The notes beneath the pieces were generated by a model. That model saw nothing but the letters and a program-made list of their open reading frames with translations, did not search any database and was not told where the DNA came from. 63,764 nt of DNA from Archangium sp. (GTDB taxonomy: Bacteria > Myxococcota > Myxococcia > Myxococcales > Myxococcaceae), in assembly GCA_030681645.1 (NCBI GenBank), contig JAUXRX010000045.1:1-63764 (forward strand), written 5' to 3'. The position numbers were made by a program, and so were the translations under genes. Positions 33,451 through 41,848 of this stretch are shown here, in pieces. Every line of letters starts with the position of its first letter. Position 1 is the stretch's first letter.

Positions 33451-35934
33451 ATGGACACTCCGACGCCCCAGACCGACGCCAATACACCGGCCGAATACAA
33501 CGCAGCGAGCATCACCGTTTTGGAAGGCCTGGAGGCGGTCCGCAAGCGCCCCGGCATGTACATCGGCGACACGTTCGTGCGGGGTCTTCACCACCTCGTC
33601 TACGAAGTGGTCGACAACTCGGTCGACGAAGCGCTCGCGCAGTTCGCCACGCAGGTGAACGTCTTCATCCACGTCGACAACTCCATCACCGTCATCGACG
33701 ACGGCCGCGGCATTCCCGTCGGGCCGCACCCGACCGTGCCCGGCATGGACACGCTCGACGTGGTGATGACGAAGCTGCACGCCGGCGGCAAGTTCGAGAA
33801 CTCCGCGTACAAGGTGTCAGGCGGTCTGCACGGCGTGGGCGTGAGCTGCGTCAACGCGCTGTCCGACTGGCTCCACGTCGAGGTCTCGCGCAACGGCAAG
33901 GTCTACCAGCAGAAGTACGCGCGCGGCGTGCCCCAGCAGGCGGTCGCGGAGATCGGCACCACCGACAAGCGCGGCACCAAGGTGTCCTTCCACCCGGACC
34001 CGACCATCTTCGAGGTGAAGGAATACGACTTCGACACCCTGTCCACGCGCCTGCGCGAGCTCGCCTTCTTGAACGCGGGCCTGCACATCACCATCACCGA
34101 CGAGCGCAGCGGCAAGGGCCACGACTTCTGCTTCGAAGGCGGCATCATGAGCTTCGTCGAGTACATCAACTCGGCGAAGAAACCGATTCACGAGAAGCCG
34201 GTCGGCCTCAAGGCAGAGAAGGACCAGATCCAGGTCGAGATCGCCCTGCAGTGGAACGAGGGCTACGACGAGAAGATCTTCACCTTCGCCAACAACATCA
34301 ACACGCCCGAGGGCGGCACCCACCTCTCGGGCTTCAAGGCCGCGCTCACCCGCACCATCAACGCGTACGCCGAGCGCACCGGCCTGTGGAAGGACATCAA
34401 GGAGCAGCCCAGCGGTGAAGACGCGCGCGAAGGCCTCGCCGCCGTCATCTCGGTGAAGATTCCCCAGCCGCAGTTCGAAGGGCAGACCAAGCAGAAGCTG
34501 GGCAACTCCGAGGTGAAGGGCCTGGTGGAGAGCATCGTCAACGAGCGCCTGCAGAACTGGCTCGACGAGAACCCGCAGACCGCGAAGAAGATCATCGGGA
34601 AGATCGGCGACGCCGCGCGCGCCCGCATCGCCGCGCGCAAGGCCCGCGAGACCGTGCGCCGCAAGGGCGTGCTCGACGGCATGTCGCTGCCCGGCAAGCT
34701 GGCCGACTGCCGCGAGAAGGACCCCGCGAAGTCCGAGCTGTACATCGTCGAGGGTGACTCCGCAGGCGGCTCGGCCAAGCAGGGCCGCGACGCGCAGTTC
34801 CAGGCGATCCTTCCGCTGCGCGGCAAGATCCTGAACGTCGAGAAGGCGCGCCTCGAGAAGATGCTCAGCAGCGACGCCATCGTCACGCTGATCACCGCGC
34901 TCGGAACCGGCGTGCGCGCCGGCAACAACACCGAGGACTACAAGCCCGACGAGATCCGCTACCACCGCATCATCCTGATGACGGACGCCGACGTCGACGG
35001 CTCGCACATCCGCACCCTGCTGCTGACCTTCTTCTTCCGGCAGATGCCGGAGATCATCGAGAAGGGCTACGTGTACATCGCGCAGCCGCCGCTCTTCAAA
35101 ATCACGCGCGGCAAGAAGGAGCTGTACGTCAAGGACGAGGACGCCCGCGACGAGTACCTCCTGTCGATCGCCGCCGAGCGGACCACGCTGGTCCGCGCCG
35201 ACAACACCGAGGTGGCCGGCGACGAGTTCAAGGCGCTGCTCTCGAAGGTGATCAAGTACGAGAAGCGGCTCGAGCGCATGTCGCTGCGGAAGGACGCGCG
35301 GGTGATCGACGCGTTGATCCAGGCCACCTCGCTCACGCCCGAGATGCTCAAGGACGATGACGCGGCCGCTGATCAGTTCGACCAGATGCTCGAGTACATC
35401 GAGACGCGTCACCCCGACCTGGTGGACTGGCTCTCGAAGAACGGCACCAAGCGCACCGCCGACCCGGAGCACTCGGCCAAGAAGTACATCATCGCCACCG
35501 AGGTGAACGGCTCGCCGCGCGACACCGTCATCGACGTGCCCTTCCTCACCTCGCCCGAGTTCCGCGAGCTCGTCGCGCTCAAGGAGAGCTTCAAGGCCTT
35601 CGGCGTGGCGCCGTACACGCTGCACATCGGCGACGCCACCAAGGACGCCGTCAACGAGACCTTCACCGCGAACACCTACCAGGAGGTGCTCAAGTACGCG
35701 CTCGACGACGCGCAGAAGGGCGTCGCCATGCAGCGGTACAAGGGCCTCGGTGAGATGAACCCCGAGCAGCTCAAGGAGACCACCATGGACCCCGCGGTCC
35801 GCACCATGTTCCAGGTGAGGGTGTCCGACGCGGTCGAGGCCGAGCGCTACTTCTCGCTGCTGATGGGTGAAGAGGTCGAGCCGCGCCGCAAGTTCATCGA
35901 AGACAACGCGCTCAACGCCAGCCTCGACATCTGA
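33451..35934 (+). CDS. gyrB: DNA gyrase subunit B
   Basis: [26 protein letters not shown], the GHKL ATPase, the TOPRIM motif (EGDSAGG) and a C-terminal tail are all present. Confidence 0.95.
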
Positions 35935-37355
35935 TGTCGCTCCTCCACGCGCGCTTCCTCGAGCCGGAGTCCCTGCGCGAGCAGCTGCGCGCGGTGCCGC
36001 ACAGGGTGCTCGAGGCGACCTTCGACACCGGCACGCTCGGTGACGAGGCGGCGGCGGCGCTGGCCGCCACCATCTTCCGCGCCGGTGAGCCGGGCGGGGT
36101 GCTCGACCTCGAGGGCGCCAGCAACTGGGAACAGCGCTTCCACCTCATCGCCTCGCTCGCGCTGACCGACGACGCGCTGGCCACGCAGCTGCTCGAGGGC
36201 GGCTGGCTCGATCGCCGCGGGGTGGGCGCGTTCGCGTTCGGCTCGCTCCCCCTGCGGGTGGTGGCCCGGCAGGTGAACAAGACCTCGCTGCGCCAGGCGC
36301 GTGAGGCGGTGCAGTTCGGGTGGGAATCAGAGCTGCTCAACGTGCTCGAGAGCAGCGCGATGCGGGCCGAGCGGGCGCCCGAGGAGCACGTGGTGCTGCT
36401 GCGCCGCGGAGATCTGTCCAGCCCCCAGCCTTCGCGCACCGAGGCGCTGCAGATCTCCACCCTGCTCAAGGAAGTGCGCGCGCACGGCGCGACCGATCTC
36501 ACCCTCACCGTGGGGCTGCCTCCGACGCTGCACGGCGCGTTCGGCAGCAAGGCGCTGGGTGAAGCGCTGCTCACGCCAGATGAAGTGGCTGACCTGGTGA
36601 GCCCGGTGTTGCCCTCGTCGCTGCTCGCCGCGCGCGGGCCGGTGGTCCACTCCGTGGCGTCGACCGAGCTGGGGCGCTTTCGTGTCACCGTCACCACCGA
36701 GCGCACCTTCCGCGCCGCGACCTTCCGCGCGCTGCCGTCGGCGATCCCCACGCTCGATGAGCTCGGGCTCTCTCCGTTGGTGCAGGGCCCGCTGCTGCGC
36801 CTCGAGCGCGGGCTGCTGCTGCTGAGCGGCGAGCCGGGCAACGGGCGGAGCACCCTCTACTCGGCGCTGCTGCAGCGCTTCGTGGCTGACGGGCGCCACG
36901 TCGCTTCGCTCGAGGAACCGCTGGGCCTCCCGCTCCGTCCCGGACCGGGCGCGGCCCGGCAGTCGATCCTCGGCATGGACGCCGACCTGTCCGACTTCGC
37001 GCGCGCGACGCGGCTGCAGCCGCTCGACGTGGTGGGCTTCGACCTGGTCGACGACGCGCAGGCCCTCGATCTCGCGCTCGACGCCGCGATGGACGGCCGC
37101 CTCGCCGTCTGCGTCTTCCGCGCGCCCAACGTCACCGCCGCGATTCACCGCGCGGGCGTGCTCGACGGCAAGCACCACCGCCGCCGCCTTTCCGAAGGGC
37201 TGGCCGCTTTCATCTACCAGCGGCTCTTCCCGCTCGACGGCAAGCACGTGCTCGAGGTCGACTTCCACCTCCCCTCGATGGCCCTGCGCCGCCACGTGCG
37301 CGCGCACGAGACCCCGCCGCCGCCGATCGTGTTCGAGACCGACTCAGTCGGCTGA
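35934..37355 (+). CDS. PilT/PilU-like secretion-ATPase paralog with degenerate Walker A (likely catalytically inactive)
   Basis: The PilT N-domain-like region is TDLTLTVGLPP...GRFRVTVT. Walker A reads GEPGNGRST (Lys to Arg), and the Walker B/Asp box lacks the catalytic Glu. The ATG overlaps the gyrB stop (TGATG). Confidence 0.7.
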   Translation: MSLLHARFLEPESLREQLRAVPHRVLEATFDTGTLGDEAAAALAATIFRAGEPGGVLDLEGASNWEQRFHLIASLALTDDALATQLLEGGWLDRRGVGAFAFGSLPLRVVARQVNKTSLRQAREAVQFGWESELLNVLESSAMRAERAPEEHVVLLRRGDLSSPQPSRTEALQISTLLKEVRAHGATDLTLTVGLPPTLHGAFGSKALGEALLTPDEVADLVSPVLPSSLLAARGPVVHSVASTELGRFRVTVTTERTFRAATFRALPSAIPTLDELGLSPLVQGPLLRLERGLLLLSGEPGNGRSTLYSALLQRFVADGRHVASLEEPLGLPLRPGPGAARQSILGMDADLSDFARATRLQPLDVVGFDLVDDAQALDLALDAAMDGRLAVCVFRAPNVTAAIHRAGVLDGKHHRRRLSEGLAAFIYQRLFPLDGKHVLEVDFHLPSMALRRHVRAHETPPPPIVFETDSVG

Positions 37356-41000: not shown

Positions 41001-41848
41001 CAGAAACCTCCTGCGAGGACGAAGCCGTTGAGCGAAGGCAGCATGCGCGCGGTGATGCGGGTGCGCGCGTCGTCGGGCGGCAGGAGCCACACCCCGAAGC
41101 CCAGCATCAACGCGCCGGCCGCCATCAGCCCGATGCTCACCGCCTTCTGCAGCGTGAGGGCCTGCTCCTGCTCCACGTAGAAGGTGCGATCGCGCAGGTT
41201 GTTGCCGTCGCAGCGCCCATCGTCGGCCGGCCCGCCGGGGCACAGCTCGTCGTTGAGCTGCGCTTCCTTCGAGAGCGCCAGCAGCCCCACCACGCCGCCC
41301 GAGAGCAGCGTGGCGCCGCCGGTGGCCAGGAGGGTGATGGGCAACACGCGCGAGGGAGGCGGGGGCAGGGGAGAGCCGGTGGCCTCCGACGCGGCGTACG
41401 GCACCAGCGCGCGCACGGCCTCGAGGCTGCCGGCGAGCTTCGAGCTGCGGCTCGCGGTCTGCGCGCGCTCGGTGTCCACCAGCTGCAGGGTGAGCTGGTA
41501 GGCGCTGCCCACGCGCGCGAGCTGGCCCGACAACACGAAGCGCGCCGAGACCAGCTTCGAGAGGTCGACGCTGCAGGCGAGGCTGTCGTCGCCACACGCG
41601 CCCAGGAGCTGCTTCTGCCGCTCGGCCCCGAGGATGGTCTGAATGTCGCGCGCCCCCAGCACCTCGAAGAGGCCGCGCGCAGAGAGATAGGTCACCACGG
41701 CGTCGGTGATGGCCGCCGCCTCTTCGGGCGCGACGCGGAGCGCGGTGAGATCGTTGACGACCAGCCGCGGTTTCTTTTCCGTCTCCGCCGGGCCGGCCGC
41801 GAGGGCGGGCAGGGCCAGGAGCGCCGACAGCACCACAACGATGCGCAT
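41000..41848 (-). CDS. secreted protein with C-terminal TM anchor, hypothetical
   Basis: The start MRIVVVLSALLALPALAAGP is a signal peptide. The stop overlaps the start of the downstream lipoprotein gene by 1 nt. Confidence 0.55.
   Translation of the reverse strand: MRIVVVLSALLALPALAAGPAETEKKPRLVVNDLTALRVAPEEAAAITDAVVTYLSARGLFEVLGARDIQTILGAERQKQLLGACGDDSLACSVDLSKLVSARFVLSGQLARVGSAYQLTLQLVDTERAQTASRSSKLAGSLEAVRALVPYAASEATGSPLPPPPSRVLPITLLATGGATLLSGGVVGLLALSKEAQLNDELCPGGPADDGRCDGNNLRDRTFYVEQEQALTLQKAVSIGLMAAGALMLGFGVWLLPPDDARTRITARMLPSLNGFVLAGGF

What the first reader, a model, noticed from the sequence alone, without database searches (positions are those of the whole stretch)
33451..41848. 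Non-canonical gyrB/recF arrangement: recF is convergent with gyrB and start/stop-coupled to a large lipoprotein operon
In most bacteria dnaA-dnaN-recF-gyrB are co-directional. Here gyrB (+) and its coupled PilT-like gene are followed by recF on the opposite strand. The recF GTG start overlaps the stop of a 785-aa lipoprotein gene (GTGA). That gene in turn overlaps by 1 nt the stop of a 282-aa secreted-protein gene. recF is therefore the last gene of a three-gene operon encoding exported proteins, and no dnaN is present in the window.
Basis: seen in the sequence. Interest (0 to 1): 0.5.

Follow-up and report, generated by a model that had tools for sequence, protein, structure and literature searches.

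The report
recF riding behind envelope-gene cassette
In this uncultured Archangium-like myxobacterium the DNA-repair gene recF has left its usual dnaN-recF-gyrB neighbourhood and is the third, start/stop-overlapped gene behind two cell-envelope genes; this is a real but ordinary lineage-specific rearrangement.

Summary
On the + strand, gyrB (33451-35934) is joined by TGATG to a degenerate PilT-like gene (35934-37355). These converge on recF (38649-37528, minus strand).

The recF GTG overlaps the lipoprotein stop (GTGA). The lipoprotein ATG overlaps the stop of a 282-aa exported protein by 1 nt. No dnaN or dnaA lies in the window.

Comparison with 80+ related loci shows a lineage-typical break-up of the dnaA-dnaN-recF-gyrB cluster. 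Anaeromyxobacter and other Myxococcota keep the canonical order, and no Myxococcaceae-like locus does. The two envelope genes form a tightly coupled cassette in front of recF in at least 14 loci, in basal and derived branches.

Sister genomes L012 and L014 differ by exactly this cassette. The same upstream leader precedes the cassette in L012 and the recF GTG in L014. This supports co-transcription from the promoter upstream of the 282-aa gene. That promoter has a conserved TACGGT 7 nt before the ATG, which may mean a leaderless mRNA.

The cassette also occurs without recF, and recF without the cassette, so a functional link is unlikely. Start/stop overlaps are common in this genome. Interest is low.

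The parts
33451..35934 (+). gyrB (827 aa), intact, with the GyrB insert domain
   Evidence: NCBIfam PRK14939 scores 1147 bits and TIGR01059 scores 957 bits, above the 882 cut-off. Pfam finds DNA_gyraseB, Toprim, GyrB_insert and the C-terminal domain.
35934..37355 (+). Degenerate PilT-like protein (473 aa). Its ATG shares one base with the gyrB stop (TGATG).
   Evidence: TIGR01420 scores 88 bits against a 319 cut-off. The best PDB match is PilT 2ewv at 1.4e-22. Against that match, Walker A reads GNGRST (Lys to Arg), the GEMRD glutamate is lost and both His-box histidines are lost. The gene lies next to gyrB in L003, L005 and L091.
37356..37527 (.). 172-nt convergent spacer between the PilT-like stop and the recF stop
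   Evidence: Inverted repeats are present. The folding energy of -80 kcal/mol is no better than shuffled sequence (z = -0.38). The scan finds no canonical intrinsic terminator in the spacer.
37528..38649 (-). recF (373 aa), GTG start, intact Walker A (GENGQGKT), signature motif (SQGQS) and Walker B (LLLLDD)
   Evidence: TIGR00611 scores 297.7 bits against a 172 cut-off. The start is conserved and is pinned by in-frame stops close upstream in relatives. The same gene call appears in L081.
38646..41000 (-). 784-aa lipoprotein. Its stop overlaps the recF GTG (GTGA), and AGGAGG at 41012-41007 lies 6 nt before its ATG.
   Evidence: It has no Pfam or NCBIfam family. It has 48 homologues, all from uncultured myxobacteria, with an invariant Cys17 after the signal peptide. 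The AlphaFold2 model has pLDDT 87 and pTM 0.86 and is all-beta. Foldseek hits are generic tandem beta-propellers with TM 0.25-0.3.
41000..41848 (-). 282-aa exported or membrane protein. Its stop shares one base with the lipoprotein ATG (TGATG).
   Evidence: It has a signal peptide. The N-terminal domain has the PelC/LpoB/CsgG/TolB-N fold (Foldseek E about 5e-6, TM to target about 0.6). Pfam LpoB scores 17.6 bits, below the 22.3 cut-off. Two long hydrophobic C-terminal helices follow. The junction with the lipoprotein overlaps in 11 of 12 loci, and the twelfth has a 2-nt gap.
41856..41861 (-). Conserved -10-like hexamer TACGGT, 7 nt upstream of the ATG of the 282-aa gene. This is the putative promoter of the sec282-lipoprotein-recF unit, and the mRNA is possibly leaderless.
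   Evidence: TAnnnT lies 6-9 nt before the start in 9 of 12 cassette loci, against a background of 0.3%, while the rest of the spacer cannot be aligned. The promoter function is inferred, not shown.
41849..41969 (.). 121-nt divergent intergenic region between the 282-aa gene and the conserved hypothetical gene at 41970-43112
   Evidence: Sequence. The homologous region in L012 reappears directly in front of recF in L014.
41970..43112 (+). Conserved hypothetical protein (380 aa), the constant neighbour of this locus across the clade
   Evidence: It has no family hit. Homologues lie between dnaN and recF or the cassette in L012, L016 and L042, and directly after dnaN in M. fulvus.

Best explanation
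This is a rearranged remnant of the ancestral dnaA-dnaN-recF-gyrB cluster in an uncultured Archangium-like member of the Myxococcaceae.

A two-gene envelope cassette sits exactly between a promoter region and the recF start codon. The cassette encodes a PelC/LpoB-fold membrane protein and a tandem beta-propeller lipoprotein, and the two genes are always start/stop-coupled to each other.

recF is therefore most likely transcribed as the third cistron from the promoter in front of the 282-aa gene. That promoter has a conserved TACGGT 7 nt before the ATG, which suggests a leaderless mRNA.

recF has no Shine-Dalgarno sequence and no spacer. It is most likely translated by ribosomes that terminate at the lipoprotein TGA and re-initiate at the overlapping GTG.

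Later rearrangements in this sub-clade moved dnaN about 0.5-0.8 Mb away. They also placed gyrB, with its coupled degenerate PilT-like gene, tail-to-tail with recF.

What is shown: the gene identities, the junctions, the synteny pattern and the precise cassette presence/absence difference. What is inferred: co-transcription, the leaderless start, termination-reinitiation, and the order and direction of the evolutionary events. The pairing of recF with envelope genes is best read as operon hitch-hiking, not as a functional partnership.
For: Gene identities come, and junctions.

- recF start: the recF GTG is conserved in 22 loci, with in-frame stops 3-9 nt upstream in L006, L013, L042, L014, L016 and L017.
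- Lipoprotein stop to recF start spacing: -4 (window, L020, L021, L091), -1 (L004, L085), +1 (L005), +3 (L042), +6 (L006), +7 (L001, L002, L012), +15 (L013).
- Canonical order elsewhere: 45 of 80 recF-anchored loci have recF followed directly by gyrB, including all 19 of L023-L041 (Anaeromyxobacter and other Myxococcota, dnaN upstream in all and dnaA in most). None of the Myxococcaceae-like loci does.
- Distribution of the cassette: it is present in the deepest branches of the recF tree (L021, L042, L020, L013), in L012 and in the window clade.
- The presence/absence difference: L014 1-562 aligns to L012 6175-6735, and L014 567-2036 aligns to L012 9999-11468, at about 86% identity. L014 lacks only the two cassette genes, and the leader ..GCGCGCGTGTAACGTG.. 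precedes recF there. L016 has the same arrangement.
- Promoter element: the TAnnnT hexamer before the cassette is conserved. There is no sigma-70-like site anywhere in 37200-42200. There is no TAnnnT or TTGACn in the last 200 nt of the lipoprotein gene in 11 of 13 loci.
- Position of dnaN: it lies about 543 kb from recF on JAXLYB010000002.1 and about 0.84 Mb from recF on the 9.42-Mb contig JASGKS010000001.1.
- Published framework for coupling at -4/-1 overlaps: PMC6728339 and PMC10666635.
Against: - There are no transcript data, so co-transcription and the transcription start site are inferences.
- E. coli recF is known (my own knowledge) to have promoters inside the upstream dnaN coding sequence. 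An internal promoter, especially a non-sigma-70 one, further up in the 2.35-kb lipoprotein gene is therefore not excluded.
- The direction of the L012/L014 difference (deletion or insertion) rests on a simple neighbour-joining tree of RecF alone.
- The -10-like hexamer is conserved in related sequences, so the 9-of-12 count is not nine independent events.
- Cassette-less recF genes carry only TAnnnN, not TAnnnT, at the equivalent place.
Confidence: 0.7

Rival explanations
1. recF is transcriptionally independent. A promoter inside the 3' part of the lipoprotein gene drives it, as the promoters inside dnaN drive recF in E. coli, and the overlap is only compact packing.
For: There is an E. coli precedent (my own knowledge). 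A weak sigma-54-like GG-N10-GC match, TGGCGCGGCACGTGCG, lies at 38674-38659 on the minus strand, 25 nt before the GTG. In L006 and L020 a TA-hexamer lies 7-9 nt before the recF GTG.
Against: The sigma-54-like match has 3 mismatches. Such matches occur about once per 1.7 kb here, and this one is not conserved in L001, L002 or L091. The scan finds no sigma-70-like site. There is no conserved nucleotide block beyond the codons for conserved residues. In L014 and L016 the leader that precedes the cassette in L012 lies directly before recF.
Confidence: 0.2
2. The operon reflects a real functional partnership, with RecF dosage deliberately tied to an envelope module. Candidate contexts are DNA uptake, envelope stress, and development or predation.
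For: The cassette-then-recF order is kept from basal to derived branches of the clade at tight spacing. Overlapping gene pairs are reported often to encode subunits of one complex (PMC10666635).
Against: One partner is cytoplasmic and the others carry export signals. The cassette occurs without recF, followed by a PD40/Tricorn-like gene in L088 and by tonB-exbB-exbD genes and a TonB-dependent receptor in L089. recF occurs without the cassette in L009-L011, L014-L019 and M. fulvus. The DDB1-type structural hits are generic tandem propellers with TM 0.25 and say nothing about DNA.
Confidence: 0.07
3. The arrangement is an artefact: a chimeric MAG contig, or a mis-called recF start or recF pseudogene.
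For: The window comes from a metagenome-assembled genome. High G+C content produces many long spurious ORFs, for example the 1686-aa ORF at 38646-43706.
Against: The identical arrangement is found in an independent Logan assembly, L081. The same gene order appears in independent MAGs L001, L004, L005, L085 and L091. recF scores well above the equivalog cut-off over its full length with its motifs intact, and the start is pinned by relatives.
Confidence: 0.02

Closest known systems
Canonical dnaA-dnaN-recF-gyrB origin-proximal cluster (E. coli, B. subtilis; here Anaeromyxobacter and many Firmicutes)
   Same: It has the same recF and gyrB orthologues. Relatives one family away still keep the complete co-directional cluster.
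   Different: Here recF and gyrB are convergent rather than co-directional. A PilT-like gene follows gyrB. dnaN and dnaA are absent from 63.8 kb, and dnaN lies 0.5-0.8 Mb away in the nearest relatives with long contigs. recF is preceded by unrelated envelope genes.
Myxococcus xanthus / M. fulvus arrangement (gyrB with a non-conserved neighbourhood, about 0.3 Mb from oriC)
   Same: It is in the same family-level clade, and the cluster is already dispersed. PMC8359277 lists M. xanthus gyrB 310 kb from oriC with a non-conserved neighbourhood. In M. fulvus CP006003, dnaN is followed by the homologue of the 41970 gene, and recF lies about 7 kb further on.
   Different: In M. fulvus recF follows a PAS-histidine-kinase gene with a 51-nt spacer, and there is no cassette. 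The envelope cassette and the convergent gyrB/PilT-like pair are specific to the uncultured Archangium-like lineages.
Overlapping (-4/-1 nt) co-directional gene pairs translated by termination-reinitiation (PMC6728339, PMC10666635)
   Same: It has the same GTGA and TGATG junction types, and recF has no Shine-Dalgarno sequence. Overlaps are very frequent in this high-G+C genome.
   Different: Such pairs are reported often to encode subunits of one complex. Here a cytoplasmic repair ATPase is coupled to an exported lipoprotein, so stoichiometric co-assembly is not plausible.
PelC / LpoB / CsgG / TolB-N-fold periplasmic proteins and beta-propeller lipoproteins of the envelope
   Same: The N-domain of the 282-aa protein has this fold. 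The 784-aa protein is a lipoprotein made of beta-propellers. One homologous cassette sits next to tonB-exbBD.
   Different: The sequence scores are below the family cut-offs (LpoB 17.6 against 22.3 bits). The protein has extra C-terminal membrane helices. The two-gene module has no described function.

Membership tests
RecF (NCBIfam TIGR00611 equivalog) | Full-length match above the curated cut-off | tested here: met
   297.7 bits against a 172 cut-off, covering residues 5-345 of 373 and profile positions 3-339 of 339.
RecF (NCBIfam TIGR00611 equivalog) | SMC-type ATPase motifs: Walker A, signature motif and Walker B | tested here: met
   GENGQGKT, SQGQSRAL and LLLLDDVSSELD are read directly from the translation. 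Pfam SMC_N scores 59 bits against a 40 cut-off.
GyrB (TIGR01059 equivalog) | Score above the cut-off and higher than for ParE | tested here: met
   gyrB scores 956.9 bits against an 882.4 cut-off. The two parE models score 765.6 and 588.6 bits, both below their own cut-offs.
Canonical dnaA-dnaN-recF-gyrB cluster | recF and gyrB co-directional and adjacent | tested here: not met
   They are convergent, with a PilT-like gene and a 172-nt spacer between them. In contrast, 45 of 80 comparison loci are adjacent and co-directional.
Canonical dnaA-dnaN-recF-gyrB cluster | dnaN, and usually dnaA, immediately upstream of recF | tested here: not met
   tblastn finds no hit in the window with DnaN or DnaA from close relatives. 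dnaN is 0.54 Mb and 0.84 Mb from recF in two relatives.
PilT/PilU retraction ATPase (TIGR01420) | Score above the cut-off | tested here: not met
   88.2 bits against a 319.1 cut-off.
PilT/PilU retraction ATPase (TIGR01420) | Catalytic Walker A lysine, Walker B glutamate and His-box histidines | tested here: not met
   GNGRST, GFDLVDD and DGRLAVCVFRA align against GSGKST, VGEMRD and TGHLVFGTLHT of PilT 2ewv.
Bacterial lipoprotein | Signal peptide ending in a lipobox with an invariant cysteine | tested here: met
   The N-terminus reads MWRRLWWLLPLVAAAAC-TG. Cys17 is invariant in 33 homologues, and relatives carry canonical L-A-S-C or L-S-C boxes. No dedicated signal-peptide predictor was available.
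LpoB (Pfam PF13036) | Sequence score above the gathering threshold | tested here: not met
   17.6 bits against 22.3. Only the fold is similar, to PelC, LpoB, CsgG and TolB-N.
Operon with translational coupling by termination-reinitiation | Co-directional genes with a -4 or -1 nt stop/start overlap | tested here: met
   GTGA at 38646-38649 and TGATG at 40998-41002. Tight spacing is conserved in relatives.
Operon with translational coupling by termination-reinitiation | A single transcript covering all three genes, and dependence of downstream translation on upstream translation | not testable with these tools
   This needs RNA-seq or 5'-end mapping and stop-codon insertion experiments. The only support here is indirect.

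The most novel reading that the evidence does not exclude
The two-gene envelope cassette acts as a promoter-proximal insertion/deletion module. It slots precisely between a leaderless-type promoter and the recF GTG. This makes RecF synthesis strictly dependent on transcription and translation of an exported lipoprotein. Recombinational-repair capacity would then be tied to an envelope programme, such as stress, predation or development, in these uncultured myxobacteria.
Probability: 0.08. Interest if true: 0.45.

Novelty: new variant of a known kind. Interest (0 to 1): 0.2.

Why it matters
It matters little. The locus is a clear worked example of how the conserved origin-proximal cluster is taken apart step by step within one bacterial family. 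It also shows how a housekeeping repair gene can lose its own upstream region and come to depend on a foreign operon's promoter and on stop/start coupling.

Three practical points follow:
- In these genomes recF and gyrB are not markers of oriC.
- The recF GTG start can be trusted.
- The 282-aa/784-aa pair is a conserved, uncharacterised envelope module of uncultured Myxococcaceae.

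Tried and rejected
- Sigma-70 promoter and intrinsic-terminator scan of 37200-42200: no promoter-like site, and two weak terminator-like hits inside coding sequence at the level expected by chance.
- Sigma-54-like scan: one weak match 25 nt before the recF GTG, not conserved in relatives, so treated as chance.
- Convergent spacer as a special bidirectional terminator: rejected. The folding energy is no better than shuffled sequence (z = -0.38), although inverted repeats exist.
- Rfam scan of 30-46 kb: nothing at E <= 0.1.
- DnaA-box search: one match against 3.8 expected, so there is no oriC here.
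- DDB1, SF3B3 and Utp structural hits for the lipoprotein: rejected as evidence of a DNA link. They are generic tandem propellers with TM 0.25-0.3, and the protein is exported.
- Apparent lipoprotein-recF fusion in L021 (recF frame open for 2481 nt): rejected. The lipoprotein is in another frame and ends in a GTGA overlap.
- Ancestral recF as a leaderless mRNA: only weakly supported. TAnnnN occurs in 7 of 12 loci, but TAnnnT in 0 of 12.
- Literature search for leaderless transcripts in Myxococcus: nothing usable.
- TP0183 "DNA metabolism" NCBIfam hit of the 282-aa protein: 18.6 bits against a 140 cut-off, so ignored.

Full report
**Observation.** The window is about 70% G+C. It is a contig of an NCBI MAG labelled Archangium sp., in which the lipoprotein is the hypothetical protein Q8L48_32130.
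- gyrB lies at 33451-35934 on the + strand.
- A 473-aa ORF lies at 35934-37355 on the + strand, and its ATG shares one base with the gyrB TGA.
- A 172-nt spacer follows.
- recF lies on the minus strand at 38649-37528.
- A 784-aa gene lies at 41000-38646. Its TGA overlaps the recF GTG (GTGA).
- A 282-aa gene lies at 41848-41000. Its TGA shares one base with the lipoprotein ATG (TGATG), and AGGAGG lies 6 nt upstream of that ATG.

A gene caller run on an independent assembly (Logan contig L081) produced exactly the same 282/784/373/473-aa genes.

**Identities.**
- gyrB and recF pass their NCBIfam equivalog cut-offs: 957 against 882 bits, and 297.7 against 172 bits.
- RecF has intact Walker A, signature and Walker B motifs.
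- The PilT-like protein is homologous to the PilT core (PDB 2ewv, E = 1.4e-22). It is far below the family cut-off (88 against 319 bits). It has lost the Walker A lysine, the Walker B glutamate and both His-box histidines.
- The 784-aa protein has no Pfam or NCBIfam family. It has only 48 detectable homologues, all from uncultured myxobacteria, with an invariant lipobox cysteine.
- Its AlphaFold2 model (pLDDT 87, pTM 0.86) is all-beta and matches generic tandem beta-propellers.
- The 282-aa protein has a signal peptide, an N-domain with the PelC/LpoB/CsgG/TolB-N fold, and two long hydrophobic C-terminal helices. Its LpoB sequence score is below the threshold.
- Both cassette proteins are therefore envelope proteins of unknown specific function.

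**recF start and junctions in relatives.**
- In 22 myxobacterial loci recF begins with GTG (rarely ATG) followed by K/R/Q-LLSL.
- In L006, L013, L042, L014, L016 and L017 an in-frame stop lies only 3-9 nt upstream, which fixes the start.
- Where the lipoprotein directly precedes recF, the stop-to-start distance is -4 (window, L020, L021, L091), -1 (L004, L085), +1 (L005), +3 (L042), +6 (L006), +7 (L001, L002, L012) or +15 (L013).
- The junction between the 282-aa gene and the lipoprotein overlaps (-1 or -4) in 11 of 12 loci, and the twelfth has a 2-nt gap. These two genes therefore form a fixed module.

**Synteny.** A recF-anchored scan of one genome per species returned 80 loci.
- In 45 of them, all outside the Myxococcaceae-like clade, gyrB follows recF directly and co-directionally. 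These include all 19 of L023-L041 (Anaeromyxobacter and other Myxococcota), with dnaN upstream in all 19 and dnaA upstream in most.
- No locus of the Myxococcaceae-like clade (L001-L022, L042) keeps this order.
- L012 and L021 have gyrB co-directional but 5-5.7 kb downstream of recF.
- The window, L003, L005 and L091 have gyrB and the PilT-like gene convergent with recF. L001 and L004, whose loci end before gyrB, show at least the PilT-like gene in that position.
- Other loci have no gyrB within 3-10 kb.
- In L042, L012 and L013 the order is dnaN, then the homologue of the 41970 gene on the opposite strand (not detected in L013), then the cassette, then recF.
- On a neighbour-joining RecF tree the cassette is present in the deepest branches (L021, L042, L020, L013), in L012 and in the whole window clade. 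It is absent in L009-L011 and L014-L019. This pattern fits early acquisition followed by several losses.

**The informative presence/absence difference.** L012 and L014 are close sisters. By blastn, L014 1-562 aligns to L012 6175-6735 and L014 567-2036 aligns to L012 9999-11468, both at about 86% identity. L014 therefore lacks only the two cassette coding sequences.
- The leader ..CGCAACGCTAACGCCAAAAG..GCGCGCGTGTAACGTG.. precedes the GTG of the 282-aa homologue in L012. In L014 the same leader precedes the recF GTG.
- L016 shows the same cassette-less arrangement, directly downstream of dnaN and the 41970 homologue.
- One and the same upstream region thus serves the cassette in one genome and recF in the other.
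- With no spacer between the cistrons, this is the best available evidence that recF in cassette-bearing genomes is transcribed from the promoter ahead of the 282-aa gene.

**Promoter.**
- The spacer upstream of the 282-aa gene cannot be aligned across lineages except for one hexamer: TACGGT in the window at 41861-41856, and TACGTT, TACCGT, TAGCGT or TAACGT elsewhere.
- This hexamer lies 6-9 nt before the start codon in 9 of 12 loci. The positional background for TAnnnT is 0.3%.
- That is the geometry of a -10 element driving a leaderless mRNA. This is my inference, and no transcript data exist.
- The 282-aa gene has no Shine-Dalgarno sequence, the lipoprotein has a strong one, and recF has none.

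**Tests for an independent recF promoter.**
- The consensus scan finds no sigma-70-like site anywhere in 37200-42200.
- The last 200 nt of the lipoprotein gene contain no TAnnnT or TTGACn in 11 of 13 loci. They show no conserved nucleotide block beyond the codons for conserved residues.
- A sigma-54-like GG-N10-GC match lies 25 nt before the GTG. It has three mismatches, it occurs at about the chance rate, and it is not conserved.
- A promoter further upstream in the gene, or one of another sigma class, cannot be excluded.

**Where dnaN is.** Nothing in the window matches myxobacterial DnaN or DnaA, and DnaA boxes are not enriched.
- On JAXLYB010000002.1 (RecF 82% identical to the window) recF lies near 58 kb and dnaN near 601 kb.
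- On the 9.42-Mb contig JASGKS010000001.1 (RecF 86% identical, same cassette-then-recF order with TGATG junctions) the cassette lies at 6.75 Mb and dnaN at 7.59 Mb. dnaN there is not next to dnaA.
- In cultured M. fulvus (CP006003), dnaN is followed by the 41970 homologue. recF lies about 7 kb further on, behind a PAS-histidine-kinase gene, with no cassette.
- A published survey already lists M. xanthus gyrB as 310 kb from oriC with a non-conserved neighbourhood (PMC8359277).

**Is the recF/envelope link functional?** Look-ups anchored on the lipoprotein remove the bias of the recF-anchored set.
- L091 has the cassette, then recF (-4 overlap), then one extra gene, then the convergent PilT-like gene and gyrB.
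- L088 has the cassette followed by a PD40/Tricorn-like gene.
- L089 has the cassette followed by tonB, exbB, two exbD genes and a TonB-dependent receptor. Neither L088 nor L089 has recF there.
- Together with the many recF genes that lack the cassette, this argues for hitch-hiking rather than partnership.
- The lipoprotein also evolves much faster than its neighbours. Against L001 it is 45% identical, compared with 80% for the 282-aa protein and 92% for RecF. This fits an exposed envelope protein.

**Is the overlap remarkable?** It is not. By a rough GC3-based gene call, about 9 of about 21 closely spaced co-directional junctions in this window are -4 or -1 overlaps. This fits the literature on high-G+C genomes and termination-reinitiation coupling (PMC6728339, PMC10666635). 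The only unusual aspect is that a cytoplasmic repair ATPase is coupled to an exported lipoprotein, whereas such pairs are reported often to encode subunits of one complex.

**Mechanism, with status of each step.**
- Shown: the gene identities, the junctions, the convergent orientation, the absence of dnaN and dnaA, the clade-wide dispersal of the cluster, the precise cassette presence/absence difference and the conserved -10-like hexamer.
- Inferred, confidence about 0.7: one transcript from about 41848 through recF, lipoprotein translation through its own Shine-Dalgarno sequence, and RecF translation by re-initiation at GTGA.
- Inferred: early acquisition of the cassette between dnaN plus the 41970 gene and recF, repeated precise losses, and later separation from dnaN and inversion or relocation of gyrB with the PilT-like gene.
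- The convergent spacer has inverted repeats, but it does not fold better than shuffled sequence. I therefore claim no particular terminator.

**Verdict.** The arrangement is a lineage-typical rearrangement of a known gene cluster. All its parts are either well-known families or uncharacterised envelope proteins. I rate it a new variant of a known kind, with low interest (0.2).

Noticed in passing
window 35934-37355 (+): The PilT-like protein coupled to gyrB (TGATG) has lost the Walker A lysine (GNGRST), the Walker B glutamate and both His-box histidines. It carries a 165-aa N-terminal extension, so it is probably a non-catalytic PilT relative. It lies next to gyrB in L003, L005 and L091.
   Followed up: partly
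window 41970-43112 (+) and 43119-43703 (+): The 380-aa conserved hypothetical protein has no family. It is the constant neighbour of this locus: between dnaN and recF or the cassette in L012, L016 and L042, and directly after dnaN in M. fulvus (L087). TAGAAC lies 8 nt before its ATG, so both divergent genes may be leaderless.
   Followed up: partly
L010 9744-9959: In this Archangium-labelled MAG, dnaA is divergent from recF. The spacer between them holds six DnaA boxes, four of them perfect TTTTCCACA, against 2.3 expected in the whole 21-kb locus. Here recF abuts an oriC- or dnaA-promoter-like region and dnaN is absent.
   Followed up: partly
window 38646-41000 (-) compared with L001 7690-9996: The lipoprotein is only 45% identical between the window and L001. 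The flanking 282-aa protein is 80% identical and RecF 92% identical, so the lipoprotein is a very fast-evolving envelope protein.
   Followed up: no
L089 4964-14442; L088 5165-9208: Homologous cassettes occur without recF. One is followed by tonB-exbB-exbD-exbD and a TonB-dependent receptor, with gyrB 1.1 kb upstream. The other is followed by a PD40/Tricorn-like beta-propeller gene. This is a hint at the cassette's envelope role.
   Followed up: no
window 38646-43706 (-): A 1686-aa open reading frame runs through the lipoprotein gene and on, out of frame with the 282-aa gene and antisense to the two + strand genes. It is a high-G+C artefact, not a gene.
   Followed up: yes
window 38674-38659 (-): A sigma-54-like GG-N10-GC match, TGGCGCGGCACGTGCG, lies 25 nt before the recF GTG. 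It has three mismatches and is not conserved in L001 or L091, so it is probably chance.
   Followed up: partly
L007 4036-10000; L008 4602-8026: In these two relatives extra DNA (about 3.6 kb and about 1 kb) separates the lipoprotein gene from recF. In L007 recF then has TAAACG 7 nt before its GTG. The inserted genes were not examined.
   Followed up: no
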